Assembly (NCBI RefSeq): GCF_964204645.1
Contig: NC_134025.1
Location: 18,389,101-18,453,100 of the forward strand
From: Tubulanus polymorphus
Lineage: Eukaryota > Animalia > Nemertea
Length of the DNA stretch: 64,000 bases
Reading direction: 5' to 3'
Part shown: piece by piece, positions 36,167-63,071 of the stretch
Layout of the letters: every line of letters starts with the position of its first letter
How positions within the stretch are numbered: the stretch's first letter is position 1
Notes under the pieces: model-generated
Told to the model about the DNA's origin: nothing
What the model saw: the letters and a program-made list of their open reading frames with translations, nothing else
The model's database searches: none
Position numbers and translations under genes: made by a program

Positions 36167-36187
36167 AAATGATTCAAATTATTTTCA

Positions 36188-36670: not shown

Positions 36671-36671
36671 C

Positions 36672-40385: not shown

Positions 40386-40465
40386 TTTAATACTAAATTT
40401 TTTATTAAAATTGATTTTAGAAGTTCAATGATTTAAATGTTATTCATTTATATGAATATTTTAAG

Positions 40466-42235: not shown

Positions 42236-42267
42236 ATACTAAATTTTATATTCCAAATTATGATTTT

Positions 42268-42790: not shown

Positions 42791-42809
42791 AATAAGATTA
42801 AAACCCACT

Positions 42810-44945
42810 ATCTACAGATTAAAAGAATTAAAAGCAAGAATTTATTTATTCAATCTAAAATATAAATAAGACACGAGGTTTCGATCTCACCCTAGAGATC
42901 ATCGTCAGGTGTGAGATATAGGTTAAAAACAGAGGTATATATACAGAGGAGAACAGGTTAATTGAGTAAATTGGTGAGTGAGTAAATAATTAGGGTTTGG
43001 CAAGGCATGAAGTATTATACTTAGAAAGAAGGGAATTGTGCGGAGAAAAGCCATTATTCAAATTGGTACTAATATCTGAGTGACGAGTAATTAGGGCGGA
43101 CTCAACTATGTGGCGTTTAGTGTAATTGTTGGAAGTATAAATAATTTCGGCATTATCAAAATTAAAACGATGACCAGTGTTCCAAACGTGATTGGTTACG
43201 CCACTAGCCGGTTTTTGATTTATTATATCCTTTTTGTGTTCCGAAATTCGAGTTTTTAATTCACGACCAGTTTCTCCAAAGTAAATTTTATCAGAGCCAA
43301 AACAAGGAATTTTGTAAACTCCGCAGTCCAAAGGTTTAGATTGATTGTTTTTAACCAAAGTCTTACTAATTTTGTTTTCATACGTGAAAATGATTTGTTT
43401 ATCCAATAAAGGGAGAGAGTGATGAAAATCTTCCAAAACAGGTACATACGGAACTACAATGAACTCTGAAATGTGTTTTTTTAATTTCTGGAGGTTTAGA
43501 ATTGAAGAAAGTACGTTTAGCCTTAGAAATAGCGATTTTCAAAATGTGATCAGGGTAAGCCAATTTTTTAAGAGAGTTGGATATATGGTCAAATTCAGCC
43601 GAAAGGAAGGTTTCATCGCAGATCCGAAGTGCACGGAGAAAGAGGCCTTGAGCGAGACCAATTTTGATTGATTTAGCAGTAAACGAAAAGAAGTGAAGGT
43701 ATGCCTCGGCGTTGATAGGTTTACGGTAGACTGAGAAAATCAAATGAGAATATTTATTGTGGTCATTTTGTCTTTTTGTTCCCATTCAAAAGTGAATTTC
43801 AAAGATGGATATTGGGAGTTGATGAAGTCGATAAAAGAGGTAAGATCAAAATTATCAGAAATTAAGCACAGAATGTCATCATCATATCTAATCCAAAAGT
43901 TAGGTTTAGATCCAGCGTACTTTGGAAGAATTTCGGATTCAAAGTGGTCAAGGAAAAGATCAGCCAAAATGGGGGATAATGGGTTACCCATAGCGAAACC
44001 GAAAATTTGTTCATAGAATTTGTCTTGGAATTGGAAATATAGATTGGTTGTACAGAGTTCCAAAAGTTCAAGTAAGCAATCTACAGGAATTGGGAGATCA
44101 AGATTGGAGTCCGGGAGTTTTCTTCTTAAGAAATTGAGAGTTGGTTCCAATGGTATATTTGTGAACAAGGAAACAGCGTCGAAAGATATACATTTTTGGC
44201 CATTAGGTTTGAGATTTTTAAGTTTGTCTAAAAAATCCATATTGTGCCGAATGTGAGAATCAGAAAAAGTACCCAAAGCCGGGGAGAGTACTTTAGCTAG
44301 ATATTTGGAGAGCCGATATGATGGAGAATTGATATTAGAAATGATCGGTCTTAAAGGTGAATTAGGTTTATGAATTTTGGGAAGACCATAAGCATAAGGA
44401 AGATTTGGAAGTCGAGAGTTGAATTTGGAGATGAAGTCCGAATGGTCAGGAAATTTCTTAGAGATGTTTTTTAAACCTAAATTAAAAGCTTATTGCATCT
44501 TTTTCAAAGGGTTGTTTTTGATGGATTTGTAGAAATTGGAATCACCGAGAATGGCAAACATTTTAGAATTGTAATTGATCAAATCTTGAATAACAATTTT
44601 GCCGCCTTTATCAGCCTTGGAGATGCGGATGGTTTTGATGGATTTTAGTTCCTGGAGAGCAATCGAAAATCTCCGAGGAAAGAACTGATTAGATTGACCT
44701 TGAAGGGTATTCCAAATGGTGTCCAAATTCATGAATATAAAATTGCATTGAAAACTAGCCGGAGGAGATCTTTCCATACGTTCAACGAAATCCAAAATGT
44801 GTTGTTTTTTATGCGGAAGAGAGAAATTTAATCCTAAACCCAGAACTTGAATTTGGGTTTTGGTTAATTTAGCTGAAGATAGATTGACAACATTATCAGT
44901 TGCGCAAAATTTGGTCCAAGGGCTGTTGTTAATTAATTTATTCAG
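42810..44945 (-). mobile_element. Penelope-like retroelement (RT and GIY-YIG), degenerate
   Basis: ISKADKGG, YGLPKIHKPNSPLRPIIS, SFDAVSLFTNIP, GFAMGNPLSP, WIRYDDD, SVYRKP, CGVYKIPC..YFGETGR..RISEH. Confidence 0.9.
42870..42912 (-). ncRNA. Minimal type I hammerhead ribozyme at the Penelope 3' end
   Basis: Minus strand: acac-CTGACGA-T-gatctc-tagggt-gagatc-GAAAC-CTC-gtgt; helix III reduced. Confidence 0.65.
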
Positions 44946-45035
44946 ATTTCATATTATCTAATTCTTGATATGTTAAAATTTTACTTAGGAATTCTTTGCA
45001 TTTACCACTAGCAATTAGTTACTCAAGTTGATGTT

Positions 45036-45702
45036 AGTAATAGGGGTTTAGTTGGTTCAGGCCAAAGGTCGAACGGTCGAGCTCATTAAAAAACAAATAT
45101 TAAAAGTAATTTAAAACTATAATATATTTTCATAGCCGTGTGTATTTTATATTATAACTAAATATTTATTCTAAGATATTAATAATTTAAATTTTAAAAG
45201 CATATTTAAAAGCATAAAAGCATATTTTAAAAGCATAAAAGCATATTTCAGCATAAAAGCATAAAAGCATATTGGTCGCTCCGCTTCGCTACCGCTCCGC
45301 TCCGCGACCAATTGATTTATTTACAATACACAAATTCATATAATCAAATATATTCAAATAATAATAATTATTCTATTATTTAACTAAAATACACACGGCT
45401 ATGAAAATATATTATAGTTTTAAATTACTTTTAATATTTGTTTTTAATGAACTCGACCATTCAACCTTTAACCTGAACCAACTAAACCCCTATTACTCTT
45501 AAAATATTTATATATATATATGTATAACATATAAATTGATAGATTATTCAATATAAAAGTAACGAGTAATTAACGAGCTCTTATAGAATAGATAGATAGA
45601 TATATTTTAAACATTATTTCAATATTTATATTTGTATGAGTTAGATTTTTAAACATTAAAAGTGTTAGTAAAGTGTGATTGAAATAATACATATTTAAAT
45701 CA
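45036..45702 (+). repeat. Left TIR of copy C, with terminal palindrome 45036-45497
   Basis: Reverse complement of 62491-63071; 45036-45148 also recurs inverted at ~45385-45497; (AAAAGCAT)n expansion at ~45196-45272. Confidence 0.93.
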
Positions 45703-45720
45703 TTGAACTTCTAAAATCAA

Positions 45721-45748
45721 TTTTAATAAAAAATTTAGTATTAAAATG
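45721..45748 (+). promoter_or_regulatory. A-run + TAAA(A)TG start motif (replication-gene class; pPolB example)
   Basis: ttttaataaaaaatttagtatTAAAATG; the same TTTA(A/G)TAAAAA-N8-10-TAAA(A)TG pattern precedes 5743, 49827, 17918, 56485 and the HNH genes. Confidence 0.6.
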
Positions 45749-48700
45749 GAAGCAAATAAGTACTACTGTCCAACATGTAATATCAATTTAGATAAATCCC
45801 AAAAATCAAGACACAATAACACTAAAACACATTTAGAGAATAAATTGAAATTAGAATATAAAGATGATATATTAGAAACTAAATTAGAAGAATTAAAGAA
45901 TGAAAAAGAAACCTACAAATGTGATACAAATGTGATACATCATTCATTCAGTGATAAAAGATATTATAAAGAACATTTAAAATCTAAAAGTCATATTGGA
46001 AATATGAATAATGATATTTTAGGTGAGGATTATTTTGATAATGACAATGATAAGAAACATAAGACAATTAAAAGAATAAGAAATAAATTAAACAATAAAA
46101 GACCATACATGGAAGATGTAAGAAATTATATTAATTCATTAGATAATAAAAAAGATATAGAGATGACCGAAGCATTTAAAAGTGATATTGGTCCAGCAGC
46201 TATTGAGTTTAAATTTCATAAAGGAAAAACATTAGAAGAAAATAAAAAACATTTAGAAAATATGAAAAATATTATAAAAATAATTACTGTTATGTTGAAT
46301 ACCCTAAAATTAGTATATCTTCTAAAGTAAAGTTTATAAAATCTGAAGATAAACTAATATATAATATAAATTCTCATTCACAACATATTATATCTAAACA
46401 ACATATAGATGAAAAATTAGATAAATGTTATAATGAAGTAAAAACTAAAATAGAAGAGAAATATTTTGAAGGATCTGGTTTAATATTTGATGAAATAATA
46501 TTTATGACTTTACATGTTTATAACACAAAATATAATAAGTTAACTAAATCGAAACCAATAGATGAAAATAATGTATCATATGATAAAGAACCAGATATTG
46601 AAGCGTCGAGTTATATCAAATTACCATTTAAAAACTAATGCTGTTATAAATGTACAAAATGAAGATGATAAATGTTTTCTATGGGCAATAATTAGTTGTT
46701 TACACCCAGTTGAAGATTATAATAAACATACTTATAGATTAACTCATTATAAACCATTTGAAAATAATTATAAGATAGATAATTATCCTGTTAGAATTAA
46801 AAATATCCCAAAAATAAAAAGAGATAATAATCTAAGAATAAATGTATTTGATTTAATCAAATTGCCAAATACAAAAGGTAACAATATAAAACATTATACA
46901 TTAGAACCTTTATATCTATCAAAAGATTATGATTCAAACGATGTTATAGATACATTATATTATGAGAATCATTATATGTGGATTAAACAAATCGATTTAT
47001 TTTTAAATCAGAAAATGATTTTGATAATAAAATATATATATGTAGAAAATGTTTACATAAATTCAGAACTGAAAGTGCATTATTAAATCATAAACAATTA
47101 TGTGAAAATCATGATTATTGTAAATTAGTTTTACCAAATGAAAAGGATAAAATATTAGAATTCACAAAATATGATTACAAAAATAAAGTACCATTTGTTA
47201 TATATGGAGATTTTGATTCATTAAATAAAGAACTAACTGATCAAGATAGAAAAGAAATATATTATAAAAGAAAGAAATCAAATTCTAATGAAAATGATTT
47301 TTCAGATGAACCACCAAAAACAAATACAATTAAAAACATTCATCAATCAGCTGCTGCTTTCGGGTTATATATAAAATCTGATTATCCAGAACAAATTGAA
47401 AGTGAATATTATGATTACAGAAATGAAAATGTTATCAATCATTTTTGTGACTTATTAATTGAATATGAAATAAGATTTAGTAAATTATTGAATATAAATA
47501 TAGAAATTATAATGACAGAAGAAGATAAAGAAGCATTTGAGTTTGCAGATAAATGTTATTATTGTGAAAAGATATTTAATTATAAAGATAAAAAAGTAAG
47601 AGACCATGATCATTTGAATGGAAAGTTTAGAGGTGCCGCACATGAGAATTGTAACTTACAAGCTAAGAAAATTAACTTTGTTCCAGTTATATTTCATAAT
47701 CTATCAGGATATGATGCACATTTATTCATCAAACAGTTATGCCATAAAATAGAAGAAATTAATAATGAAATAGAAAGATTGAATTCAAATAGATCAAAAG
47801 ATAAAATACCAACTTATAAATTTAAAATGTTAGCTAGAACATCTGAGAATTATATATCATTCCAATTTGGTTGCCTAAGATTTATAGATTCATATAGATT
47901 TTTAGGTAGTTCATTAGATAACTTATCAAAATCATTAGTTGATGATGAATTAAAAATATTAAAACAACACTATCCAAATAATGATGATTTTAAATTAATG
48001 AGATATAAAGGCGCAATTCCATATTCTTTCTATAAAAATCATAATGATTTCAATATAACTGAATTATTAAAAGAACAATTCTATGATGAATTAAAAAATG
48101 AATATGTTAAAGATGAAGTATATAATAGAACATTGAATATTTGGAATCATTTCAAAATAGGAAATCATGGACAATTAGTAGATTCATATCTAAAATCAGA
48201 TGTATTATTATAAACTGATATATTCGAAAGGTTTAGAGATGTAAACCTAAAATATTTTAACATTGATCCATGTCATTGTTATTCTAGTCCAGGTTTAACA
48301 TGGGATTGTGGATTAAAATTTACAGATATAAAAATGGATTTGTTAACAAATATAGATCAATTACTATCATTTGAAAAATCTATAAGAGGAGGAGTTTCGG
48401 GTGTATTAGGGGATAGATATTTCAATGTAAATGATAACCCTGGATATAAATTATTATATATAGATGCAAATAATCTTTATGGTTGGGCAATGATGGAACC
48501 AAAACCTTATGGAGTATTTGAAATAAGTGAAGTTTTACAACATGAAAATAATGACAAATTTGATTGGAAGAAAAGAATTCTAGATATTGCAGATGATTCA
48601 GATACTGGTTACTTTTTTGTTGTAGATTTAGAATATCCTGAACATATTAAATTTAAATCTAGAAATCTAGCATACTGTCCCGAACATAAAACTGTAACTC

Positions 48701-49797
48701 ATGAAGAATTATCAAATTATCAAAAAAGAATTAAACCTGAAAATCATATTCATACAGAAAAGTTAATGGTAACTCAGGAAGATAAATATAATTATGTAGT
48801 ACATTATAGAATGTTGAAGTTTTATTTGAATCAAGGAATGATTCTAAAAAAAGTACATAGATATATTTCATTTAGCCAATCTAAGTGGTTAGAAAAATAT
48901 ATAGATTTTAACACCAAACAGAGAACTGAAGCTAAAACTGATTTCGAGAAAGATTTCTTCAAGTTAATGAACAATGCATTCTGTGGTAAGACTTGTGAAA
49001 ATATTACAAACAGAAATGATATTGAGTTAGTTAGTAATGGCAAAAGGATAAGGCATTTACAAACATATCCTAAATTTATAGGTAACAGAATATTTGATGA
49101 AAATTTAGCTGCAGTTAAAATGAGAAGAACATCAATGAAATTTAATAAACCAATCTATGTTGGTGCTTCAGTTTTAGAAATCTCAAAGCTATTAATGTAT
49201 GAATTCTATTATAATGTATTACAACCTCATTTTGGAGAAAAGCATATAGAAATCTTATATTTTGATACTGACAGTTACATATTAAAGATAAAAACTAATA
49301 ACATAACTGATGATTTAAAAACATTAAAACATCATTTTGATTTCAGTAACTATCCTAAAGATCATGAATTGTTTAGCAATGATAATGAAAAAGTTCCTGG
49401 TAAATTCAAAGATGAATTAGGTGGTGAAGAAATGATTGAATTCATTGGTATTAGATCTAAAATGTATTCATATAAAACTAAAGAACATGAAGCTAAAAAG
49501 TTAAAAGGAATAACCAAAAGTGCAGTAGAAAAGAATATTCATTTCAAAGATTATATCAATTGTATATTCAAAGAAGAAGTTAGAAAACATAAAATGAGAT
49601 GTTTAAGATCTGAAGATCATGAAATGTTTATTGAAGAGATAGAGAAGATAAGTCTAAACCCATTTAATGATAAAAGATATATTCTGGATGATGGAATTCG
49701 TACAGTTGCTTATGGTTGTAATTTAGATGAATACTTAAAATTTAAAAGAGAAGAAACAAAAGAGAACGAGATAATGAAAAGAATTCTAACGTGTTAA
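45746..49797 (+). pseudogene. polB: Full-length protein-primed PolB (ZnF, putative terminal protein, vOTU-like, exonuclease with endonuclease VII insert, polymerase), several frameshifts/stops
   Basis: YYCPTC..H..H; NEDDKCFLWAI..HYMWIK; IYGDFDS; CYYC..VRDHDHLNGKFRGAAHENCN; FHNLSGYDAH; YIDANNLYG, KLMNNAFCGK, YFDTDS. Confidence 0.94.
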
Positions 49798-49826
49798 TCA
49801 AATTTTAATAAAAATATGTATTATAA

Positions 49827-50180
49827 ATGGAGAGTAAACAAGCACACAGTGAGAACAACAAATTATTTCCAGATAGAATAAAAGATACTTCAAATGTCAA
49901 ATCAGTAGATTATAAATTTAAGAAGTTAAAAGAATTAATAATCCATAAGAAATATCTAATTACAAATATTGATACAGTTACTAACAAATATGGAGATAAA
50001 TTAGTTATACACTTAGAATATGAAGGATTAAAAGGAAATACATATAAATTCAGAACATATTTACCAGATAGATTTCGTAGATTATCAAGTGAAGATCTAG
50101 AAGAATTATGTTCTGGAGATTTCTATTTCGTATACAAAGGTAAGAATGAAAAAGGGCATCATGAAATAGATTTCGAATAA
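49827..50180 (+). CDS. Conserved 117-aa protein (copy C)
   Basis: Near-identical to 5743-6096. Confidence 0.7.
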   Translation: MESKQAHSENNKLFPDRIKDTSNVKSVDYKFKKLKELIIHKKYLITNIDTVTNKYGDKLVIHLEYEGLKGNTYKFRTYLPDRFRRLSSEDLEELCSGDFYFVYKGKNEKGHHEIDFE

Positions 50181-50197
50181 GAAAATATGTAAAATAA

Positions 50198-50959
50198 ATG
50201 GTAGAATTAAAAGAATACAGAATATTTGTTGATTCTAGAAGACTTACAAATTATAAATCACATAATTTACTAGTACAATTAGATAGAGAATTTAAGAATT
50301 GTGTTGATTTAAAATAAGTAAATATAAGTTTACGTAATTCTTTTTATAATATAACGAATAAAACTATTGAACATAGAGCCTTTTTAATTTTTGATAAAGG
50401 TAAAAATGAATGGTCTTATATATATCTAAAACCGGGGTTATATAATTTAGATACATTTGCACAAGAAATTAATAGAAAAGCCTGGCACAAATTAGGTAGT
50501 AGTTCTGGGTTTAGTATTAGATTTTTAAAAAGTGATAGTTCTGATAGAATAAAGATAAGGTTGTCTAATAGTGAAAAACATAAATTTATGGTAAAAAAAC
50601 CTAGAGCTAAACTGTTAGGAATTCTTCCAGATAGATCTTTTAAAAATATTGATGCTGTTACACCAAACTTAATACCTTACACACATTTTTTTATTTATTG
50701 CAATTTAATCGATCCTACAAAAAAATTCGAAGCAACTAAAGATATAACTTGTAATTCTGGTTTACTAAACATTTTACCATTGAAGAATGTTAAAGAATTT
50801 GGAACGCAAATAAATTATAATTTAACAGAATGTGATTTCAAACCATGCATTCCTCGTTTTAATAATTTTAGATTAGAAATTAGAAATCATAATGGATACT
50901 TAATTGATTTAAATAATTTCCCTGTAATTTATGAATTAGTTATAAGATGTAAAAAGTAA
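50198..50959 (+). pseudogene. Penton/minor capsid protein, frameshifted (copy C)
   Basis: HFFIYCNLI..FRLEIRNHNGYLIDLNNFPVIYELVI. Confidence 0.72.
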
Positions 50960-50976
50960 TTTTTTTCACTATACAA

Positions 50977-51318
50977 ATGAATTATACTGTTGGACCGAGT
51001 ATATGTTTTGGGTTTGATTTTAAACATGGTAAAGAAATGAGAATTAAACTAAATGATGTAATTACTGATATAAAATGTAAATCATTTAACAATGCATCAA
51101 TGATTAATAAAGAAAATTGTAATATAGAAAAAGTAATTGATTTAATTAAATCACCTTTAGAATATTATGAATTAAATGAAGATGGAATTATTGATGATAT
51201 TAAAAACATATTAACCAAAATATATGATAATCATAAAAGTAGTAATGAAATAAATGTTGAATTAATCATAAATAAGTTAACTAAATATTTTGAAGATAGT
51301 AATTTTTTTGATAAATAA
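50977..51318 (+). CDS. Hypothetical protein (113 aa)
   Basis: Homolog of 6882-7238. Confidence 0.68.
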   Translation: MNYTVGPSICFGFDFKHGKEMRIKLNDVITDIKCKSFNNASMINKENCNIEKVIDLIKSPLEYYELNEDGIIDDIKNILTKIYDNHKSSNEINVELIINKLTKYFEDSNFFDK

Positions 51319-51540
51319 ATGAGTGATAATAAGTGGATAATAACTGAATTATATAATGGCGCATTACTATCAGTTGGAACTGTTGGTTATTCAATGGTAT
51401 TGAAAAAAGTATTTAAAATGGGAAGTGTTAATGTTGATAGATTTGATATTAATGATATTTTAAAATTAACATTAGCAGTTACTTTATCTAATTTAACTAT
51501 TGATTATTTGGAAAAACAAAAATATATTCCTCCTATATAA
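51319..51540 (+). CDS. Small hydrophobic protein (73 aa)
   Basis: Homolog of 7239-7460. Confidence 0.75.
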   Translation: MSDNKWIITELYNGALLSVGTVGYSMVLKKVFKMGSVNVDRFDINDILKLTLAVTLSNLTIDYLEKQKYIPPI

Positions 51541-51564
51541 ATGCATAATTATTTTACTAAATAA

Positions 51565-51985
51565 ATGGCTTCTGCAGTTATAACTATTATAGGATCGGCA
51601 ATTGTTAACGCTTTAGCATTTACTGGTGGTGGATATTTATTTAAGCATATTGATAAAAATGGATCATTAACAGAACAAAAAAGACATAATTTAGCATTAG
51701 AAAAATATAATAAAGAAGCGGAAGAATATAGAGAAAAGAGGCAAAACTATATGGATTATATTAACAAGGAATTATATGATCAGAAGATTTCACATAGAGA
51801 TTTTCAATCAGTTGATGATGCAATGAGTTTATATAACGGTAACAAATAAAGAAAAATTACATCTATACAAACCTAAATTATCAGATTATTATACCCCAAG
51901 TAATGAACAGAAGAAATATGAAATAATATGGATTTTAGGCGGAACAGTTATTGTTATATTTGTAGCGTATAGATGTACTAATTAG
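51565..51985 (+). pseudogene. MASA-type membrane protein, frameshifted
   Basis: Homolog of 7486-7908 with a frameshift near 51838. Confidence 0.72.
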
Positions 51986-52006
51986 TAATTTTTTTTTGCT
52001 AAATAA

Positions 52007-52424
52007 ATGGATGATAATATTGATATTATTCCTCATGATATAAATAAAACTATATTAAAAACATATTTAGAAAAACAAATATTATAATTTGAAAGTGACT
52101 TAAAGATAAAAAAGAAAGAATATTTAAAAAATAAAAATTATATATTATCTTATTATTAGTGGTTCAGTTACAATTAGTTCTGTAATAACATTTTTAGCAA
52201 TATTCAGTCCATTAACACCTTTAGCTATATCAATTGGCGTATTAGGATTAAGTTCAAGTGTTTTAACTGGTATAAGTTCAAAATTAAATATAAAAAGTAA
52301 TAAAGAAAAAATTAAAACTAATATAAAAGAAATTAAAAAATACACTAGATTATATAATAAGTTTAAATGGCCATATAACAGTTGAAGAACAAGATAAATT
52401 ATTAAAAGAACTAGTTAATTATTA
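52007..52424 (+). pseudogene. Two-TM membrane protein, frameshifted
   Basis: Homolog of 7927-8359. Confidence 0.62.
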
Positions 52425-52441
52425 ATTCTTTAATTATATAA

Positions 52442-53763
52442 ATGGTAGATAGTTTTCCAAAAGCTTTCCAATATAATAAATCAATTAAATATAATATTCC
52501 TGCAATAGATTTTAATAAAGATATTTCATATAGAAATGAAGTTTTAAATTCAGTAATTGATTTATATATTTATGTCACTGAAAGTAATAATTTTCATGTA
52601 AAGATGTAAAATATATTTCATGTGTATACAATTAATTTTAAAAATTTAAATGAGGCAAAACAATGGTTATTAAAATCTAATATGAAGTATTGGCAGAACC
52701 AATTAAATTATGCTGTTTATTGTGCAACAACAGGATGTGGAATTAGTTGGAATGATCATTTAAACAAACCAAGTTTACCATTGATGTTATCACTTTTTAG
52801 ATTTCATACTTATTTTCAAATAGAATTAATATTAGATGAATTAGAATGTCCTTTACCAGGTTCAAAATATTTTAAAGAATTGAATAATAAAATTAATTTT
52901 TCTAAGTTTTATAAAATATGTAATGAATTTAATATTAATTCAAATAAAGATTTTAGAGCAAAAATTGGAACAATGGGTGGATTAGGAATATTATATACTA
53001 AAGAATTTGGAAAAATAATGACAAATTCAGATATAAGAACACTAAATTGGAATGAATTACCAAAATATTATAATAATATACAACAACAAAACAATAATGG
53101 TTGGGTTTATTTCATTTTAGAAAATAGTGAAGGTTTTACTAAAGCTGGAATACAAAGAATAAATCAATCTATTAGAAATTATTTGATATGTATTTTAGGT
53201 GCGCAAGTTGAAACAAGATCACCAATAGTTGGAAATGATAACACTTCATTCGATGCGCAGAAACAATTCAAAGTATTATTTGAAGATTCCATTCATAATG
53301 ATAAAAATAGATCGATTCCAGAAAACATTGTAAGATATCAAAATTATTTAGATAAATAACATATTAGATTAAATTATTGTATAGGCCCTAATCTATTAAT
53401 TATTTCTAATGATTTAGTATTAAAGATGGGAAATATAATTGGTTATAATAATCTAATTAAAACTGCGACAATAAATAATTCATTTTGATTGAATGATATT
53501 AATAAAAAAGATAATTACTGCTCCAAAATTAATGGAAGGTGAAAAAAATAAAAAAACACATTCAATCAACTGAAACTAAAAATATTAAATTGGATAATGA
53601 TTCTAAAATAAAAGATTACAATACATCAGAAAATATTAAAACTGATAATATTCAACATGATATAATTAAAACTAATGATGATAATAAATCCCATGAAAAT
53701 ACTAAATTTGCTTTAACTTGTATAGGAATTGTAATCGGAGGAATATTATATTTTAAATTTTAA
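52442..53763 (+). pseudogene. YWQNQLN/CATTGCG protein with C-terminal TM, several stops
   Basis: Homolog of 8376-9687. Confidence 0.72.
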
Positions 53764-53779
53764 TTTTTTTATTATATAA

Positions 53780-55189
53780 ATGGATGTAGAAGGTGGAGAA
53801 GATATTGGAATGGAAGGCACGGGAAATAATAATGAAGGATATATTGATGATGATTATAATGATGCTGAAACTAATATTGATGATAATTCATCAGCGCGTA
53901 ATTCTAATTTAGCAGAGAGTGGTTCTAATGCCCCATCAACAGATGAATTTGATAGAACTAGATCGAGAATAAATCCTGAAAATGAAAATCAAGGTTTATT
54001 AAAGCAAAATTTAGAATATAATGAATATATTTATAATTTCAAACATGTATTTGAAAAATCTGGATATAATATCAATGATAGAGGCGCCAGACAAAATTTT
54101 TTAGACGGTGAATATTATTATAAATTGAAAGATGATTATTATATTGATATCTCTTATAAAAAACAAGAAGAAATATTAGCAGAATCAACTTTGCTTAAGT
54201 TAGACCTATCTAGAATTAAAAGAATAAGAAATAGTGATGAAATAGAAGATGTAACACAAGAAGAAATTATTAAAAATGAATGAGTATTTGAACAAAGAAT
54301 TAATAAATTATTTGAAACAATCGATAATAATTTAGAACCAAAAACAACTTCTGGTAAACTTAAATCAAATAAAGTTCCAATTGAAAAACTTTTACCAAAT
54401 GGATTACTTGATGCAACAGATCAAGAATTAGAAGATTTAGATATATTTTCTGATAAAGCAATTAGAGAAATTATTAGTATAAGACTTGCATCTGATAAAA
54501 TTGCACATGATAAAAGTATAAGAGATTTTAAAATTAGAACTTTGGAAAAAGAATTAACTAATGCAAATAAAGAAATAGAACAACTAAAGTCTGATTAAGA
54601 TCATCAAGTAATTGATGAAATAGAATATAGGCAAAAAGAATTACGTTTAGAAAAAGAAATTAATAATTTAAAAGATAATTTAGAAGTACAGAAAGAAGAA
54701 ATTAAATTATTATTAAAATCACATGATTATAATATTAATAGATTAAAAGGTATTTTTAAAGATTTGTTGATAAAACCAAATTCTGAAATATCATTGAAAG
54801 ATAGTATAAAATTATTATTTAAATTAGAAGGAATAACAATTTTTTCAATTCTAACAGCTGTAACTATGTTATTTACAACAATTGGTTAAGCAATATCAAA
54901 TTCTTTGAAATCTACTCCTACTCCCAATAAACCGGATAAACCCCCAGATAATAATAATTCTATACAAGATAAAGTTAAAGATGGTTTAAAGAAATTAGCA
55001 AAATATTTATGGGAGCTATCAAAAAAATCTGCTGCAGCACTGCCCGGAGTTATTGCATCAATTATTGGTTTTATATTGAAATCTGCTGGGAATATTATTA
55101 ACCTTGCTGCTGAACATATTATTTTATTTTTAATTACAGTTGTAAGTGCTATTATTTTTGGGTTAGTAAACATGATAAAAAATAAATAA
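53780..55189 (+). pseudogene. Acidic/coiled-coil/multi-TM protein, several stops
   Basis: Uninterrupted homolog of 9688-16601. Confidence 0.75.
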
Positions 55190-55209
55190 TTAATTTTTTT
55201 GTTAAATAA

Positions 55210-56452
55210 ATGAGTGGGAGTTATATCAATCCTTCTAAGAATCATAGAATATCTAATGCTATTAAAGCAGAAAGATCACATCATATAATTACTCATAACC
55301 CTTCTAATATAAATCCTGATGAAACTTTATATGTTAGAATCCCTAGATTAACACAAAATACTTTTTATGTTCCAAATAGTATTTATTTATCAGCCGATAT
55401 AAAAGTAATCGGTAATAATAATAATTATGTTGTCGATAATGTTGGGAGGTATTTGATTAAAAAATTAACAATAAAGATTGGTCCAGAAACAGTTTTCTCA
55501 TTAGATGATTATAATTTATTTATGCATTATAATGATTTATGGTTAACTAAAGAAAATAGAAATAATATGATATTTCAAGGCATCCAATCAGAAAACCAAA
55601 ATAAATTAAGATCAGAAGCTAATAGCGCAATATTAACTAATGCTATAGATAAATTGATAAAAAGTATATATGGAAGCAAATATAAAATTCCATTAGACTT
55701 TGAATTGATAAATAATAATGCGCCTTTATATAAATACGCAATTCAAGAAGATGTTATATTCGAAATAACATTTGCTCCTGTAAATGAAATTGTAATATCT
55801 AGCGTTAATAAAGATGTGGGTTATAAATTATCGAATATATGTTTAGAATATGATACAGTAACTGATGAAAATATTTCAAGTATAATTCAAACTCAATACA
55901 ATCAAGGATTTTCATTATTATATGATTATAATGATAAATTTAAAACCGTAACTATCAATGCAAATGATGAAATAATTAATGAGAATATTAACTTCCCAAG
56001 AAGATCTATTAAAGGTATATTAATATTTTTTACCATTGCAACATATACTAATGGTGCAATAAATGTTGATAATTATTATAATCCTGAAATAACAAAAGTA
56101 GAAATAACTATCGAAGGAATAGCAAATAAAATATTTTGTCAAGGAATGAGAATGATTGATCAATGGCCAGAAATTAGAAAACATTTTATGAATGAAAAAG
56201 TAAAATCATCTGAAAATTGTAATATTAATCAAATTGATTATTATACCGGTAATAAATATGCATTATGGTTAGATTTTAGAACAACAGAGGATAATTCATT
56301 ACATGGTTCTGGAAAAAAACTACAGAACACTAAAGATGGAATACAATTATTCATGACAAAGAATAAAGGAATCAAAAATTTCAAAATGCACATTTATATC
56401 TGACGCGCAATTAGATATTGTAAATTCTCAATTAAATAGTGTTATGTATTAG
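55210..56452 (+). CDS. Major capsid protein (copy C), frameshift in the last ~17 codons
   Basis: 397-aa ORF 55210-56403, near-identical to copy A MCP. Confidence 0.82.
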
Positions 56453-56484
56453 AATTTTAACTTTAATAAAAATTTATATAATAA

Positions 56485-57335
56485 ATGGAAGGAGGTAAAG
56501 TATATAAACATATTCCATACATCGATTCACATGAAAATAATGATGGTTTATATTATGTAATACCTTGTAATATAGCTTTGATATTTGATCCTATTTTCAA
56601 AATTTATAAAACTAAACTAATAGAAATCGATAATAATAAAAGTGGTGTTGTTGATAATTTAAGTAGTAATTGATAATAATGTAATACCTTCTACATCTAA
56701 TAAAGTAATACCTTCTACAGCTAATAATGGAATACCTTCTACATCTAATAATGTAATACCTTCTACATCTAATAATGTAATACCTTCTACATCAAATAAT
56801 GAAATAATATTAAATATCAGTGAAAATAGAAATTATTGTGATTCTTGTAAAGGTGAATTTTCAAATGCTCCATCAAATTGGAATAAACATATGAATACAA
56901 AGGTACATATTACTAATGTAATAGAACGTGTTGGTTTATGAGAATTTATAGAACACCCATATATATATATATGTTACAAAGTTTGTTTCAAATAAAAAAG
57001 TAAATGGTAAAGAATTATAAGAACATTTATTAGGTGAATTTTTATCTAAGGAACCTAGTAATGATAAATTAGATTTATCTGCTGCTAATAAAATATTATG
57101 ATCAAACATTGTAAATGAAATATTAGGAGCAAACACTAAGAAAGATGATAATGAAAATATAGTTACAAATATTGATATTAAAGATAATGTGGATACATTT
57201 TTTACGAAAGATAAAGTAGTAACTATTGATGATGCGGTAAAAAGGATGAATAAGTATAACAATAATGAAGAATTTGAAGAAGATTCGGTAGAGAGTTTGA
57301 ATAAATTGTTAGGGTCTGATAGTGAAAGTGATTAA
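56485..57335 (+). pseudogene. Variable-slot protein with PSTSNNVI repeats and zinc finger
   Basis: MEGG start as in 17918; 24-bp repeats taataccttctacatctaataatg; YCDSCKGEF..WNKHMNTKVH. Confidence 0.62.
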
Positions 57336-57529
57336 GATATTAATTATATTTAACTCAAATAATAATATTGGTTGAAAATTGTATAAAATAATAGTAAATA
57401 AAAAAGGGGGTTTTAAGTATTTAAGGTATCTAATAGGGTATCTAATACATAGTAGGTATTAGGGTATCTAATAGGGTATCAGGTATTAGGGTATCTAATA
57501 GGGCATCTAATACATAGGTATATAAATAG

Positions 57530-58141
57530 TTATTTTATAAATTTATATTCATAGGGAAATTGAAACCTAAGTAATAATTTTGAACCTTTATTATTCTTTG
57601 ATTTATTCATATATTCATCATATAATTCAGTAGGTATAATATCATTTTCTTCCAATGATTGTTGCTTAGATTTTTTAGATTTGTTATAAAATAAAACTAG
57701 AAATCTTATATTATCCCTAAAGTCTTTAACAATTGAATTATATTTTTGATTTAAAACCCATGTTGTTATCCCAAAATGTCTCCCAGAGAAAGCTAAATAA
57801 CATAACTCACTTTCTCTAACTTTTGAATCATGTAAATTTGCACAATCATCTATAATGAATAATGTATTTGATCCTTTATAAGTATCAATTGCTATTTTAA
57901 TACAATTATCTAAATTTTCTTTTACTGTTTTAGGATCTAATATAATAAACTTTTTCATCTTAACTATATCTCTATTATATGTTTTATTCATTTCATAAGT
58001 AGGACAAAATAATATTATATTATCAAAATGATTCTTATAAATAGTTTCTAACAAGTCTAATATGAAATGTGTTTTACCACAGTTGGATGCCCCAGTTATT
58101 AACATATTATGCGGTTCAAATATAAATAAATCTTTATTCAT
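57530..58141 (-). CDS. A32-like packaging ATPase, intact (copy C)
   Basis: GASNCGKT, FIIDD, SGRHFGITTWVLNQ. Confidence 0.92.
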   Translation of the reverse strand: MNKDLFIFEPHNMLITGASNCGKTHFILDLLETIYKNHFDNIILFCPTYEMNKTYNRDIVKMKKFIILDPKTVKENLDNCIKIAIDTYKGSNTLFIIDDCANLHDSKVRESELCYLAFSGRHFGITTWVLNQKYNSIVKDFRDNIRFLVLFYNKSKKSKQQSLEENDIIPTELYDEYMNKSKNNKGSKLLLRFQFPYEYKFIK

Positions 58142-59226
58142 TTATTCTTTTAATTTTACTAGATAAAATCCATTCATTAAATTTATCATCATATCCTTTA
58201 TATTTCACCAAAGAATACTTTTTTCCTTTAAGAGTTTTTGTTTTCAATACTTTTTCTATTTTGTATTCTATTTCATCTGGGTTTGGCACAAGTGATAATT
58301 CTTGTTCATAGAAATAACCTTATATTTCTTCATCTTTTAGATCTTCTAGTTTATAAACAAAAGGTTTAGTTAATATTGTCTTTTTAATCTTGAATATTTC
58401 TTCTGTAAAATTAGGGGTATAACCTTTATGAAAGGTTTTTCTATATTTAGATATTCTAACGTGTTGACCAATTTTAAATTTAGGTTCACCGAAATCATGT
58501 GTAACAAATGCTCCATATAAATTATTCCAAACTATTTCCGAATTATCTTCTTTTCTAGCTTGTATAGGTTTCATATTTATAGAACTATGTTTAGAATTAT
58601 TATAACCTTTCACTAAATCATCTAACACATCGATATATTTATATGTTTCATTAGCAGTAAAATATTTCCACATTCTAGTTTTCGATGTTTTATTAAATCT
58701 TTCTATAATAGATGCTTTTTTATCTGAGTGTGTTGAAAAATAATCTACATCGTTATCAGATAATAGTTTTTTTTAAATGTTTGTTAAAAAATTCCTTACC
58801 TTCATCAAATTGTATCTTATCTGGAATAGCTTCTTTAAATATTGATTTAAAAGCATTTGTTACTTATATACCAGTTTTATTTTTGATTGGAATTGACCAT
58901 GCGTATCTACTGAATATGTCTATAACATTCAATATCCAGAAATATCCTTTGTTGTATTGCTCTAAGTTCTTCATGTCAATTAAATCTGCTTGCCATTGTT
59001 GATCGATATATGAAACCATAACTTTTCTTGTTAAATAAGTTTTATCCATTTTCTTGTGGATTTGATATGTTGGTTGATTTTGTAACCATGATTTTAATTC
59101 ACTATATTTTATATTACCATTTTCTTTATCAGATTTAATTTTATCCCATAATTTTGAAACGTTAGAATATGATACTTCACTTTCTGGGTTATAATATAAC
59201 CCTCTTAAATATTGTTCTTTTTTAAT
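58134..59226 (-). pseudogene. Integrase-chromodomain, disrupted (copy C)
   Basis: Colinear with 19966-21057; start codon mutated, internal stops and frameshift. Confidence 0.9.
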
Positions 59227-59240
59227 CTTATTTCAATCCA

Positions 59241-59591
59241 TTAATAATAATTTAGATTTAGTTTATGATTTGACTTATTTTCTGGTATAATAGGTTTATC
59301 ATCATTGGAATCATCTTTATCATCAGATTTATACTTATATTTATATATTACACCGGATAATATAATAACTGTAATTAACCCAATTGTAATATTTAAGTAA
59401 TTATTTCTTCCACTATTAGAAGAATTAGATGGATTATTATTTGAAGTAATATCAGATAAAGTCTGTGATTCATTTATATCAGTTAATTTCTTTTTCTTAG
59501 CTTTTTTTAATTCTGCAGATCTTTTACCTAATTCTCTTGCCCATTTAATTTGTTTCTCGGATGTAACCTTTTTCTTAACGCCATCACTCAT
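59241..59591 (-). CDS. Small basic single-TM protein (copy C)
   Basis: Homolog of 21112-21432. Confidence 0.7.
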   Translation of the reverse strand: MSDGVKKKVTSEKQIKWARELGKRSAELKKAKKKKLTDINESQTLSDITSNNNPSNSSNSGRNNYLNITIGLITVIILSGVIYKYKYKSDDKDDSNDDKPIIPENKSNHKLNLNYY

Positions 59592-60199
59592 TTATTTTAG
59601 TTAATTTTTGTTCTGATTCATTTTCTGTTTCGCCGTTTGGTTGTAGTACATCTGTTTCGTTCTTACCTGATTTATATTCCATAGGTTTGATATTCGAAAA
59701 TGTTATGACGCCAGTAGAAATTAATGTCATAACCGATCCTAATTGAAATGAAGCATAACCAACCCATTTTTGTAATTCAGTCATAACTAAGTAGTCATTT
59801 TTCAAATCACTATATAATTTATTTTCATCATCAATTGGTATTAACTGGTTACATAACTTAGAATAACATTTGACAATACAATCTGAAATAGAATCATTTA
59901 TTCTAGCTAATCTAGCTTCTTCATAAATCTTAAAATATTTTATTACTTTATCTGGTTTCGTAGCATCTAATTCTTGAAAAGTAATAGTAAAAGTCTTAGT
60001 TAAAAATTGTTTAGATTTCCCGCCAGCAATTAGTAACTCAAGATGGTGTTTACAATATAAATAGTATTCATAATCTATATTGTTATTAACTTGAATATTA
60101 TTTTCAATTTTGGTCGGAATATCCTTATTATCACTAATACCTAAATCATCTAAAGTTTTTTTCAATGCTGGTATTATTCTTACTCGATTTCTTTGACAT
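59584..60199 (-). pseudogene. MSKKSS-family protein, 5' frameshift (copy C)
   Basis: Homolog of 21425-22033. Confidence 0.72.
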
Positions 60200-60300
60200 T
60201 TATATTAGAGAAATTTAATGAAAAAAATATTATAAGTATTATAAAATGATACCAGTATCTCTTTAGATTAATACTAGCTTAGTTAAAGGTAAAGAATTTT

Positions 60301-60392
60301 AGTATTAGTTATTGTTTTTTTAGTATTTTTTATTAGTGATATAAAGTATTCTTTTTTGAAAAGAAAATATTTAAAAAACAATAACTAATACT
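60301..60392 (-). terminator. AT-rich hairpin downstream of the HNH gene, putative 3'-end signal
   Basis: 20-bp perfect stem agtattagttattgtttttt / aaaaaacaataactaatact, 55 bp after the HNH stop. Confidence 0.4.
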
Positions 60393-60446
60393 AGCTAGTT
60401 GAAGATATGTAATTTTTAATACTTTTTATTTAAAATCTATTATTCT

Positions 60447-61115
60447 TTACCCACTCATTGAAGACTCAACGTATTGTTCATTATTTGGATTATTGTTCCA
60501 TTGATCAATAAATTTCTTTGCCTTTGTTAACTGTTCTAAATATAACTGTAAATCTAGTTTATTAGATTTGATTTTATTTTCTTTCTTTTCAAGAGGTCTT
60601 AAATTTTTCCAATTCCAAATAAGTTTTTTATTGTATTCATCATTCATGTTAAATTTAGATATCGGTAACACGTGATCAATATGAAAATAATCTCCATAAT
60701 TATCTATATTCATTTGACTATGGAATTGAAATATAATCCGTGATTTGAGAAATTCATCTGTACAACCCAACAAATTAGATAGTGTTTCTGAATGTGTTTC
60801 TTTGTTGAATAATTGTGTTAATCTAGACCTTAAGCATGGTTTCAATCGAAAATTAAGATCTTTTTGATATCTTTCTCTCATATATTCTGCCATATAATAA
60901 TTATAATGTTCTATATTATCTTCTCGGTATTGTTTGGTATATAGTTTAGTGCAAGTTTTACAACAATATTGAAAACCATCTTTGCTAATCTTACGCTTAC
61001 TAAATTCTGTTATAGCTAATTTATCTAATTCACACTTAGAACATTTCTTGAAGTATATATTTATAACACCAGTGTTATTTGTAATATTGATAGTTTGTGG
61101 TTGTTCTGGTTCCAT
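60447..61115 (-). CDS. HNH endonuclease, intact (copy C)
   Basis: KKCSKC..CKTC; [27 protein letters not shown]. Confidence 0.85.
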   Translation of the reverse strand: MEPEQPQTINITNNTGVINIYFKKCSKCELDKLAITEFSKRKISKDGFQYCCKTCTKLYTKQYREDNIEHYNYYMAEYMRERYQKDLNFRLKPCLRSRLTQLFNKETHSETLSNLLGCTDEFLKSRIIFQFHSQMNIDNYGDYFHIDHVLPISKFNMNDEYNKKLIWNWKNLRPLEKKENKIKSNKLDLQLYLEQLTKAKKFIDQWNNNPNNEQYVESSMSG

Positions 61116-61254
61116 TTATTATACGTATTTTTTACTAAATTGGTTAATATTTTAGAATCCTCTTCCATTTCTTCGACCAACGTCATCCTTTTTCATTCCT
61201 CGCTGCTTTTGATAAGTCGTTTCGATTCCTTGATATCTAAATCATACCAGTTAC

Positions 61255-61690
61255 AATACCCGCGTCACATGCGGGCATACAGGAGCGCTTTTGCTTAATG
61301 CGCATGCGTTAATCATAATTATATATTCATTCTATAAATTCTGTAAAATAGAAACAACACATGCGTTACATGCGGCCATTTATGGCCGGTTTTGCTTAAT
61401 GCGTATGCGTTAATCATAATTATATATTCATTCTGTAAATAGAAATAACTGAACACATAAAATATCAAAACGCATGTGCACTAGGCAAGACCGGGCATTC
61501 AGGCCCGGTTTGGATCAATGCGCATGCGCTAATCATAATTATATATTCATTCTGTAAATTCTGTAAAATAGAAACAACCGACATAAAATATCAAAACGTG
61601 TTCGCATTAGGCAAGACCGGGCATTCAGGCCCGGTTTGGATCAATGCGCATGCGCTAATCATAATTGAAACGACTGAACATAAAAATTCG
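61255..61690. repeat. Four-copy array of hairpin units (copy C)
   Basis: gcaagaccgggcattcaggcccggtttggatcaatgcgcatgcgctaatcataattatat and variants. Confidence 0.85.
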
Positions 61691-62490
61691 CCAAACAGAT
61701 TTACACAATACATTATACAAGTTGTTCAGTCGTTTCTTCCAATACATCATTTGATTTCTATGAATACAATTTATAATTACAAACATTTTTTCAATTGCCG
61801 GTAAATATTTAACTACATGAACAAATGTTAAACTTAATCATTGGAGTCTTAATGTTTTTGAAATTCTTATATAGTTTCTTCGTCGATCTTTTGTGATTCT
61901 TGTGCTTCTACGGCAATTTCTATTGGTTCGATATCCATTGCTGTTGATTCCTCAGCCAGAAAGAGTATCTTGAGTTTCTCTATCGCTTCTTGATGCGTAT
62001 GACGTTTTATTAATCTAAAAAATAATAGCGGTAATTCTAGCTATCTAAAAGATATACTAAATACACTTAAATATATCTAAAGGTTTCATATTTAATAGCC
62101 CTAATAACTACAAAAAACAGTACTTACATTTAGATTTAGAATTGTAAACTATAAACTCCTAATTGCGTTTCGAGAGAGAATATCCTAAGCGTTATGTTAC
62201 ATCGTCTATTCAGTTCCGGTGCGATTTCGAAATGAACACGTCTTCGATTATGACACGTCATCTAGTTCCGGTACACCTTCTAGAATGTTCTACGCGTTTG
62301 CAGTATTATGATATGTCATCTCTATTCAGAGTTCCGGTACACCTTCTAGAATGTTCTACGCGTTTGCAGTATTATGTCTCATATGTCTCGGCGTCATATT
62401 AACAGCTGTGAATTTATAGATTTATTCAATAGTTCATTACATGAAATGTATATAGGCTCAAATAGAATCATGTTCTAGTATAAACAGCTA

Positions 62491-63071
62491 TGATTTATAT
62501 ATGTATTATTTCAATCGCACTTTACTAACACTTTTTATGTTTAAAAATCTAACTCATACAAATATAAATATTTAAATAATGTTTAAAATATATCTATCTA
62601 TCTATTCTATAAGAGCTCGTTAATTACTCGTTACTTTTATATTGAATAATCTATCAATTTATATGTTATTCATATATATAAATATTTTAAGGGTAATAGG
62701 GGTTTAGTTGGTTCAGGTTAAAGGTTGAATGGTCGAGTTCATTAAAAACAAATATTAAAAGTAATTTAAAACTATAATATATTTTCATAGCCGTGTGTGT
62801 TTTAGTTAAATAATAGAATAATTATTATTATTTGAATATATTTGATTATATGAATTTGTGTATTGTAAATAAATCAATTGGTCGCGTATTGTATTAATAC
62901 AATATGCTTTTAAAATTTAAATTATTAATATCTTAGAATAAATATTTAGTTATAATATAAAATACACACGGCTATGAAAATATATTATAGTTTTAAATTA
63001 CTTTTAATATTTGTTTTCTAATGAGCTCGACCGTTCGACCTTTGACCTGAACCAACTAAACCCCTATTACT
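62491..63071 (-). repeat. Right TIR of copy C, with terminal palindrome 62692-63071 (GC apex deleted)
   Basis: Reverse complement of 45036-45702; inner arm begins ggtaataggggtttagttggttcagg. Confidence 0.93.

What the first reader, a model, noticed from the sequence alone, without database searches (positions are those of the whole stretch)
45036..63071. Synthesis: candidate endogenous virophage-like virus of a cytoplasmic large DNA virus
Seen in one family: complete capsid and packaging module, no RNA polymerase, poxvirus-like start motifs, hairpin ends, a giant-virus-type intein, an HNH gene of a kind common in large DNA viruses, and intergenic hairpins. Inference: an integrating hyperparasite, analogous to mavirus, that is activated by a nucleocytovirus infecting this host; a dense cluster of copies could act as an antiviral reservoir. 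Lesions differ between A, B and C (integrase intact in A, ATPase in A and C, HNH in A, B and C), so a working consensus looks reconstructable.
Basis: inference. Interest (0 to 1): 0.8.

Follow-up and report, generated by a model that had tools for sequence, protein, structure and literature searches.

The report
Polinton virus wired with poxvirus promoters
This is a broken, integrated copy of a high-copy virus-like element whose genes start at poxvirus-style late promoter sequences and whose sister copies carry a polymerase intein, so it likely multiplied by borrowing the transcription machinery of a cytoplasmic large DNA virus that has not been found.

Summary
45036-63071 is a full-length but decayed polinton-like provirus (terminal inverted repeats, 6-bp target duplication, protein-primed polymerase, integrase, ATPase, major and minor capsid proteins; no RNA polymerase or maturation protease detected). 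It belongs to a high-copy family. The promoter claim holds: 13 of 16 gene starts are TAAATG against 5% of other ATGs. In 80 related loci the motif is confined to one half of the capsid tree, and it carries the upstream T-run of vaccinia late promoters (40 of 81 starts versus 5 of 123 other TAAATG sites). The intein is real but lies in copy B (33510-34574). It belongs to a small clade of polinton-polymerase inteins nested among motif-C inteins of RNA-primed polymerases; the donor is unresolved. Palindromic ends are real and co-evolve. A hairpin rule, a giant-virus origin of the HNH gene and an antiviral reservoir are not supported. Best reading (0.62): a hyperparasite of an unidentified poxvirus-like cytoplasmic virus; no helper, RNA or particle was seen. 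It works like mavirus but is not shown to be a virophage. My paper searches found no report of this. This scan noted the same promoter wiring before in another genome (e1-8580207).

The parts
45036..63071 (+). Copy C: full-length, decayed polinton-like provirus (18.0 kb, about 20-26% GC in most 1-kb bins)
45030..45035 (+). Left target-site duplication (6 bp; partner 63072-63077, one mismatch)
45036..45703 (+). Left terminal inverted repeat; its first 462 nt (45036-45497) form a palindrome with 114-bp arms
62490..63071 (-). Right terminal inverted repeat, palindrome at 62693-63071
45746..49797 (+). Protein-primed DNA polymerase B with an internal endonuclease-VII/HNH domain; broken by frameshifts and stops; intein site empty; start context TAAAATG with an A-rich core
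49827..50180 (+). Open 117-aa ORF, no family hit, homolog in L001; TAAATG start
50198..50959 (+). Minor capsid (penton) protein gene, one internal stop; TAAATG start
50977..51540 (+). Two small ORFs (113 aa and 73 aa); the 73-aa one is in 23 related loci
51565..51985 (+). Conserved ~140-aa protein with hydrophobic ends (predicted membrane protein), frameshifted in C, open in A
52007..52422 (+). SLATT-like two-helix membrane protein gene, broken
52442..53763 (+). Conserved ~430-aa core gene of unknown function (30 related loci), broken
53780..55189 (+). Conserved coiled-coil protein gene with hydrophobic C-terminus (48 related loci), broken; split by a LINE in copy A
55210..56403 (+). [quoted passage not shown]
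56485..57335 (+). Variable, decayed gene after the capsid gene
57530..58141 (-). A32-like packaging ATPase, open, Walker A and B present
58134..59226 (-). Retroviral-type integrase with chromodomain, broken in C (open in A, 19966-21057)
59241..60199 (-). 116-aa ORF and conserved ~200-aa core gene of unknown function
60300..60393 (.). Single strong intergenic hairpin downstream of the HNH gene
60447..61115 (-). Zinc-finger plus HNH (endonuclease VII-like) gene, open in A, B and C
61253..61666 (.). Subterminal 101-126-bp tandem repeats, shared with B (39007-39347)
3716..25006 (+). Copy A: left end missing, right terminal repeat partial, LINE inserted at about 11150-16470
32929..40869 (.). Copy B: rearranged and deleted; polymerase on the minus strand; one complete palindromic end (about 40466-40869)
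33510..34574 (-). 1065-nt intein with LAGLIDADG-like endonuclease in polymerase motif C of copy B; four in-frame stops and a frameshifted C-terminal end
31607..32971 (-). Fragments of a further copy (integrase and HNH pieces)
41896..45035 (-). Older decayed copy (ATPase remnant 42270-42790; 200-aa-gene remnant 44899-45035, continuing at 63072-63205) into which C inserted; interrupted by a Penelope-like retroelement

Best explanation
The element is a decayed, integrated polinton-like virus whose genes begin at two-part poxvirus-late-type promoter sequences, and it likely worked as a hyperparasite transcribed by the RNA polymerase of an unidentified poxvirus-like cytoplasmic DNA virus. Shown: the gene set, the ends, the high copy number, the TAAATG initiator with a T-run about 10 nt upstream, its restriction to one lineage, and an intein in the polymerase of many but not all copies. 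Inferred cycle: (1) the provirus sits largely silent in host chromosomes because its promoters suit a viral polymerase; (2) when a helper infects the cell, element DNA reaches the cytoplasmic factory, by co-infecting particles or by release of an integrated copy; (3) the helper's post-replicative machinery initiates at TAAAT, which would give mRNAs with 5' poly(A) leaders; (4) the protein-primed polymerase copies the genome from the palindromic ends, whose arms are kept alike by copying; (5) ATPase and capsid proteins, probably with a membrane and without a maturation protease, package it; (6) the integrase inserts new copies with a 6-bp duplication. Sharing a replication compartment with large DNA viruses would also explain how a motif-C intein of RNA-primed polymerases entered this polymerase family. 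The copies in this window can no longer do this on their own.
For: Promoters: 13 of 16 starts in C and 13 of 15 in A are TAAATG against 36 of 721 other ATGs in C (binomial P about 6e-15; starts were hand-picked). Automated first-ATG calls on core genes of related loci: 68 of 80 in 23 loci against 2 of 286 in the rest, and 0 of 47 in AT-rich loci of the rest. All 20 motif-using rows fall in one half of the capsid tree (SH-aLRT 100; with 5 non-users), none among 38 scored rows in the other half. The motif persists at 40-44% GC (L007, L008). TTT at -14..-12 in 40 of 81 starts against 5 of 123 non-start TAAATG sites (P 1e-14); only 5 of 81 TAA triplets are the stop of an upstream ORF. Vaccinia late promoters have TAAAT(G) at the start codon and a conserved T ten bases upstream (PMC11980589, passages). 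Asfuvirus (TATATA) and CroV (TCTA) late motifs differ (PMC5294985, PMC11788076, passages). No RNA polymerase hit in C or in the related ORFs scanned. Two motif-using relatives carry nucleotide kinases (L001 dNK 1.7e-31; L008 thymidylate-kinase-like). Intein: 124 of 129 hits with a mapped N-junction sit at YGD of RNA-primed polymerases; six rows, five with polinton-polymerase context or the window's own, form a clade (100). Precedent: polinton-like viruses in entomopoxvirus occlusion bodies (PMC11296320, parts 1-3 of 8 read) and helper-dependent Gezel and Tsv elements (bioRxiv 2026.06.19.733378, parts 1-3 of 5 read).
Against: No helper sequence, transcript or particle was observed, and no host genome was available to search. 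The intein does not point to poxviruses: of 109 classifiable hits, 93 had exteins nearest a polymerase-delta-like reference, 12 nearest an ASFV-like one, 2 nearest a T4-like phage one and 2 none (no poxvirus reference was included), and the sister group is unresolved. The HNH gene's nearest matches are phage families. No hairpin rule at gene ends. The family reached high copy number in the germ line, which needs integrase and polymerase activity reaching the nucleus; a helper-free route is possible. Yeast cytoplasmic linear plasmids also use a TAAAN initiator (PMC6211774, passages), so the motif is not exclusive to poxviruses. The polymerase start is TAAAATG, not TAAATG.
Confidence: 0.62

Rival explanations
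1. An autonomous nuclear polinton-like virus or transposon transcribed by host RNA polymerase II. TAAATG with its T-run is a lineage-specific initiator or translation-start context that resembles poxvirus promoters by convergence in AT-rich DNA.
For: High germ-line copy number and nested insertions fit ordinary transposition. Sister loci with the same gene set lack the motif, so the gene set does not need it; some use AAAATG, a common invertebrate start context (recalled). Coral polintoviruses are described as expressed in host tissue (PMC11131425, section title and passages).
Against: The motif is nearly invariant across loci of 20-44% GC, is absent from 47 starts in other AT-rich loci, and has a second element at the vaccinia spacing. 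It is kept even where it lies inside the upstream gene's codons (ATPase and 116-aa starts).
Confidence: 0.15
2. A relic: the lineage was helper-dependent and acquired its promoters and intein then, but in this host it spread mainly inside the cell, by leaky nuclear expression or in trans, without a living helper.
For: All window copies are broken. A rearranged B-type junction recurs in well over a hundred reads, as expected of non-autonomous derivatives copied in trans. No RNA holder was listed.
Against: The promoters are still near-perfect in A and C, and intein-bearing and intein-free alleles coexist, which fits fairly recent selection and homing.
Confidence: 0.13
3. The helper is not a poxvirus-like virus but another cytoplasmic transcription system with a slippage initiator, such as a linear virus-like plasmid or a different nucleocytovirus lineage with unstudied promoters.
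For: Yeast virus-like elements use TAAAN (PMC6211774, passages). The intein's relatives are mostly polymerase-delta-like or ASFV-like. L051, inside the same half of the tree, has TATAG-rich starts and a weak VLTF3-like gene.
Against: The T-run ten bases upstream of TAAAT is described for vaccinia late genes (PMC11980589, passages); late motifs described for asfuviruses and CroV differ.
Confidence: 0.1

Closest known systems
Maverick/Polinton elements (Polintoviricetes; adintoviruses, PMC8502044)
   Same: Protein-primed polymerase, retroviral-type integrase, A32-like ATPase, major and minor capsid proteins, terminal inverted repeats, 6-bp target duplication, about 18 kb.
   Different: No maturation protease detected; capsid protein gives only a weak nucleocytovirus Capsid_N hit and ranks nucleocytovirus capsids above adintovirus and MELD entries by fold; poxvirus-type promoters; complete intein in the polymerase; palindromic terminal repeats.
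Animal-derived elements grouped with Aquintoviricetes (ATPases from octocoral, hydrozoan and bivalve genomes, bioRxiv 2026.06.19.733378; Polinton-3_NV and N1A_NV, PMC11296320)
   Same: Polinton-like elements in animal genomes outside Maverick-Polinton groups 1 and 2; this is the likeliest home of the family (inference from gene content).
   Different: Placement was not tested, since no named reference sequences were available. No promoter or intein feature is given for them in the parts read.
Mavirus (virophage of CroV)
   Same: Protein-primed polymerase plus integrase, integrates in the host genome, no RNA polymerase; shares its helper's late promoter motif (recalled); minor capsid fold matches.
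   Different: Virophages encode a vUlp1 protease (PMC11161782, passages), not detected here; the major capsid is no closer to mavirus than to nucleocytovirus capsids; the motif is TAAATG, not TCTA; helper dependence is untested.
Entomopoxvirus-associated polinton-like viruses (Barth et al. 2024, PMC11296320)
   Same: Proposed polinton-like hyperparasites of poxviruses in invertebrates.
   Different: Those are about 12 kb, encode a cysteine protease and lack an rve integrase; the word 'promoter' does not occur in that paper's main text. Here the link rests on promoter sequence, not on co-isolation.
Motif-C inteins of family-B polymerases (Mimivirus/HaV type; name recalled)
   Same: Same insertion point (after the aspartate of Y-x-D in motif C), Ser start, Asn end before Thr, LAGLIDADG-like endonuclease, about 355 residues.
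   Different: The host is a protein-primed polymerase of an integrated element; these inteins form their own clade. PMC11161782 (passage) only suggests that endonuclease domains in polinton polymerases stem from intein invasions.

Membership tests
Maverick/Polinton (Polintoviricetes) | Protein-primed family-B polymerase | tested here: met
   C matches L043 and L016 polymerases over 86-94% of their length; L043 is DNA_pol_B_2, E 1.8e-15
Maverick/Polinton (Polintoviricetes) | Retroviral-type integrase | tested here: met
   rve 2.2e-9 plus chromodomain in A; D, D, E motifs present; broken in C
Maverick/Polinton (Polintoviricetes) | Terminal inverted repeats and 5-8-bp target duplication | tested here: met
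Maverick/Polinton (Polintoviricetes) | Major capsid, minor capsid and packaging ATPase | tested here: met
Maverick/Polinton (Polintoviricetes) | Adenovirus-like maturation protease | tested here: inconclusive
   No protease hit in Pfam scans of C, A and relatives nor in a six-frame motif scan of C; three conserved genes remain unassigned, so absence is likely but not proven
Maverick/Polinton (Polintoviricetes) | Capsid or ATPase phylogeny within groups 1/2 | not tested
   No named reference sequences were available; homologs found were unnamed
Virophages (Maveriviricetes/Virophaviricetes) | Virophage-type major capsid protein | tested here: inconclusive
   Mavirus capsid ranks 47 in PDB (TM 0.49) behind PBCV-1 and iridovirus capsids (TM 0.54-0.62); all at 8-12% identity
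Virophages (Maveriviricetes/Virophaviricetes) | vUlp1 protease | tested here: inconclusive
   Not detected
Virophages (Maveriviricetes/Virophaviricetes) | Replication only with a nucleocytovirus helper | not testable with these tools
   Needs infection experiments; no helper sequence could be sought in the host genome
Poxvirus late-type promoter | TAAAT initiator overlapping the start codon | tested here: met
Poxvirus late-type promoter | T-rich core with a T ten bases upstream of TAAAT | tested here: met
   T at -13 in 60 of 81 starts versus 36 of 123 controls, TTT 40 versus 5; in C alone T at -13 is 8 of 13 versus 13 of 36 (not significant) and TTT 5 of 13 versus 1 of 36 (P 0.003)
Poxvirus late-type promoter | Non-templated 5' poly(A) leader on the mRNA | not testable with these tools
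   No RNA run holding the element was listed
Motif-C family-B polymerase intein | In-frame insertion at motif C, Ser start, Asn-Thr junction, splicing and LAGLIDADG domains, empty allele known | tested here: met
   (both Pfam hits below curated cut-offs); 57 reads lack exactly these 1065 nt

The most novel reading that the evidence does not exclude
A widespread, undescribed lineage of protease-less polinton-like viruses parasitises poxvirus-like viruses of invertebrates that have not been discovered yet. Its promoters are a fossil record of those helpers, sub-lineages have retuned their promoters to different helpers, and a giant-virus-type intein has jumped into and is homing among their protein-primed polymerases inside an animal germ line.
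Probability: 0.45. Interest if true: 0.88.

Novelty: new variant of a known kind. Interest (0 to 1): 0.72.

Why it matters
Whether animal polintons are autonomous viruses, transposons or parasites of larger viruses is a long-standing open question, and no helper is known for integrated animal copies. A promoter signature that matches vaccinia late promoters in sequence and spacing makes the question directly testable with a reporter assay and with 5'-end RNA sequencing. It also predicts a poxvirus-like virus in hosts where none is on record. A complete intein in a protein-primed polymerase would be a direct trace of gene flow between large DNA viruses and polintons; it was not found described in my searches.

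Tried and rejected
No host genome is held, so intact copies and helper markers could not be sought. Viral-contig scans with the capsid, its alignment, an intein relative, two intein-bearing polymerases and the 430-aa gene gave no confirmed locus; a prokaryote-genome scan gave none. No RNA holder was listed; one run guessed to be RNA laid nothing; neither is evidence on expression. Hairpin rule: 16 gene ends, none below z -2.5, rejected. Stop-start coupling as the cause of TAAATG: 5 of 81, rejected. AT-richness as the cause: 0 of 47 starts in other AT-rich loci, rejected. TTTTTNT depletion in coding strands: 9 versus 22.4 and 3 versus 13.5 expected in two motif-using groups, but 17 versus 21.3 in the third and 12 versus 16.8 in a non-using control; not used. 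An ASFV-like donor for the intein: suggested by FastTree (0.83), unresolved in two IQ-TREE quick trees on 57 of 103 rows (the careful searches did not finish). HNH homolog search gave 5 unnamed hits, too few for a phylogeny. The 430-aa gene had no usable hit in Pfam, NCBIfam, PHROGs, PDB or the Atlas. No Rfam match in the window. A split into A-core and T-core promoter classes by gene function is visible by eye in C but was not clear across loci. Capsid hits labelled Bartonella lie on contigs under 2 kb and were read as likely contamination.


Full report
1. What is there. The window holds at least five pieces of one AT-rich element family. Copy C (45036-63071) is full length: its terminal inverted repeats are 97-99% alike and it is flanked by a 6-bp duplication with one mismatch. 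Its flanks match the element's own 200-aa gene, so C inserted into an older copy. Copy A (3716-25006) lacks its left end and carries a LINE; copy B (32929-40869) is rearranged and lacks most structural genes. LINE and Penelope-like debris fill the gaps. The host is likely an invertebrate animal; that is inference from the repeats, and I did not determine it. No whole genome was held. In a raw-read DNA run, depth over most of C is about 300-800 against 7-11 in the thinnest bins near B (different identity cut-offs, no single-copy calibration), so the family has at least tens and probably hundreds of copies.

2. Genes. [quoted passage not shown] The major capsid ORF folds as a double jelly-roll (pLDDT 86), with nucleocytovirus capsids ranking first at TM about 0.5-0.6 and 8-16% identity, too distant to place it. 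The minor capsid matches mavirus, MELD, PBCV-1 and adenovirus pentons. No RNA polymerase and no maturation protease were detected; three conserved genes stay unassigned.

3. Promoters, the main result. In C, 13 of 16 gene starts read TAAATG, and 13 of 15 in A, against 36 of 721 other ATGs in C. I picked those starts by hand, so I repeated the test on 80 metagenome loci found with the capsid alignment (the best 80 of 174 confirmed), using automatic first-ATG calls. Core-gene starts were TAAATG in 68 of 80 cases in 23 loci and 2 of 286 in the rest; in AT-rich loci of the rest, 0 of 47. That split was drawn, so I checked it on a capsid tree: all 20 motif-using rows lie in one half (SH-aLRT 100, with 5 non-users), and none among the 38 scored rows of the other half (80 rows, 17 unscored). 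The motif is two-part: TTT at -14..-12 occurs in 40 of 81 starts and 5 of 123 non-start TAAATG sites in the same 19 loci (three near-duplicate loci and L014 left out). Only 5 of 81 TAA triplets are an upstream stop. A review describes vaccinia late promoters as TAAAT(G) over the start codon with a conserved T ten bases upstream (PMC11980589, passages), which is position -13 here. Described late motifs of ASFV and pacmanvirus (TATATA) and CroV (TCTA) differ (PMC5294985 and PMC11788076, passages). Yeast cytoplasmic linear plasmids use TAAAN with slippage (PMC6211774, passages), so the signature marks a poxvirus-related transcription machine rather than poxviruses alone.

4. The intein. It lies in B, not in the given interval: 1065 nt at polymerase motif C, with four stops and a frameshifted end. 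Pfam gives weak intein-splicing and LAGLIDADG hits. A profile-free HMMER search found 1285 relatives. Among the best 150, 124 of 129 with a mapped N-junction sit after YGD of RNA-primed polymerases; of 109 with both junctions, 93 exteins were nearest a polymerase-delta-like reference, 12 an ASFV-like one, 2 a T4-like one and 2 none. The closest relatives (42-68% identity) have polinton-polymerase flanks where flanks are present, and form one clade with the window's intein (100). Its sister group is unresolved. Reads show intein depth of about 100-145 and 57 reads lacking exactly these 1065 nt, so filled and empty alleles coexist. The intein thus supports contact with large DNA viruses but not specifically with poxviruses.

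5. Ends, hairpins, HNH. Each terminal repeat starts with a palindrome (114-bp arms; z -20.8 for the left one). B's two arms share a variant block absent from C's four arms, which indicates copying between arms. Whether free genomes have closed hairpin ends is not shown, and a protein-primed polymerase does not need them. There is no hairpin rule: 16 gene ends gave at best z -2.5; one strong hairpin follows the HNH gene. The HNH gene keeps its motifs and occurs in four motif-using relatives, but its nearest named matches are a phage endonuclease VII family (1e-15) and viral Atlas clusters whose few labelled members are mostly tailed phages. It is not evidence for a giant-virus link.

6. Mechanism. 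See Best explanation. The steps from promoter sequence to helper dependence are inferred. The antiviral-reservoir idea is unsupported here: broken, nested copies among retroelement debris fit an insertion sink at least as well.

7. Comparison and novelty. The element has the polinton gene set except the protease. It most likely belongs with the animal-derived elements that a 2026 preprint places outside Maverick-Polinton groups 1 and 2 (bioRxiv 2026.06.19.733378, parts 1-3 of 5 read); I could not test that. It works like mavirus by inference but is not shown to be a virophage. [quoted passage not shown] Searches for TAAATG plus polinton (1 unrelated paper), polinton plus poxvirus plus late promoter (6 listed, 2 read in passages), polinton plus intein (15 of 18 listed; 3 of 5) and intein plus protein-primed plus maverick (7 of 9 listed) showed no report of either feature. 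I saw most of these only as listings. PMC11161782 (passage) suggests intein origins for endonuclease domains in polinton polymerases; PMC12220804, PMC8502044, PMC11131425, bioRxiv 2026.10.13.758929 and bioRxiv 2023.08.22.554363 were seen as passages only. Subscription journals and all supplements, including the closed bioRxiv ones, were not seen and could hold either feature. An earlier, unchecked note of this scan (e1-8580207) reports the same promoter wiring in another animal genome; I had recorded my reading before seeing it, and I found no RNA polymerase subunit in my loci. Two other notes were leads only: fold-back polinton derivatives (e1-8073239) and a polinton with its own transcription factors (e1-9810199), a reminder that host-polymerase routes exist.

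8. Verdict. Real feature, new variant of a known kind. Helper dependence on a poxvirus-like cytoplasmic virus 0.62; autonomous nuclear element 0.15; relic 0.13; other cytoplasmic helper 0.10. Interest 0.72.

Noticed in passing
window 45036-45160, 45375-45497, 62693-63071, 40460-40869: The outer and inner arms of each terminal palindrome share copy-specific sequence: B's two arms carry one variant block, C's four arms another. Both end types are abundant in reads. This points to copying between arms during replication.
   Followed up: partly
window 40163-40449 (copy B): B's junctions (subterminal region to an HNH-end piece to the inverted polymerase start) recur in about 130-150 reads each, so the rearranged form is an amplified subfamily, not a one-off.
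   Followed up: partly
L051 and L052 (6543-7049 and gene starts): A relative inside the same half of the capsid tree lacks TAAATG, has TATAG/ATAGA-enriched starts (8 of 16, 0.8 expected) and a weak VLTF3-like gene (E 6e-4, below cut-off); it may be tuned to another helper.
   Followed up: partly
L001 10343-10981 and L008 2898-3380: Deoxynucleoside or thymidylate kinase genes in two motif-using relatives.
   Followed up: no
L079 8189-12253; L036 9970-13596: Replication genes are swapped within the family: L079 has a different polymerase type (no BLAST link to C's) and L036 a helicase-type protein instead.
   Followed up: no
L023, L030, L036 and other GC-rich loci: Upstream regions of the GC-rich sister lineage are enriched for TTGAA (28 of 84, 3.7 expected; 23 of 91, 5.0 expected), a different unexplained motif.
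   Followed up: no
P0171, P0176: Two T4-like phage polymerases carry the same motif-C intein family, so it crosses between phages and eukaryotic viruses.
   Followed up: partly
window 11150-16470, 25340-26030, 26950-31350, 42990-44950: Retroelement debris: a LINE with endonuclease and reverse transcriptase inside copy A, Penelope-like elements (RT plus GIY-YIG), an RNase H plus PHD fragment, and long (AT)n tracts at 24592-24739 and 25391-25633.
   Followed up: no
P0046 cluster: Capsid relatives (54% identity) are filed as Bartonella proteins on contigs under 2 kb, likely eukaryote-derived contamination.
   Followed up: partly
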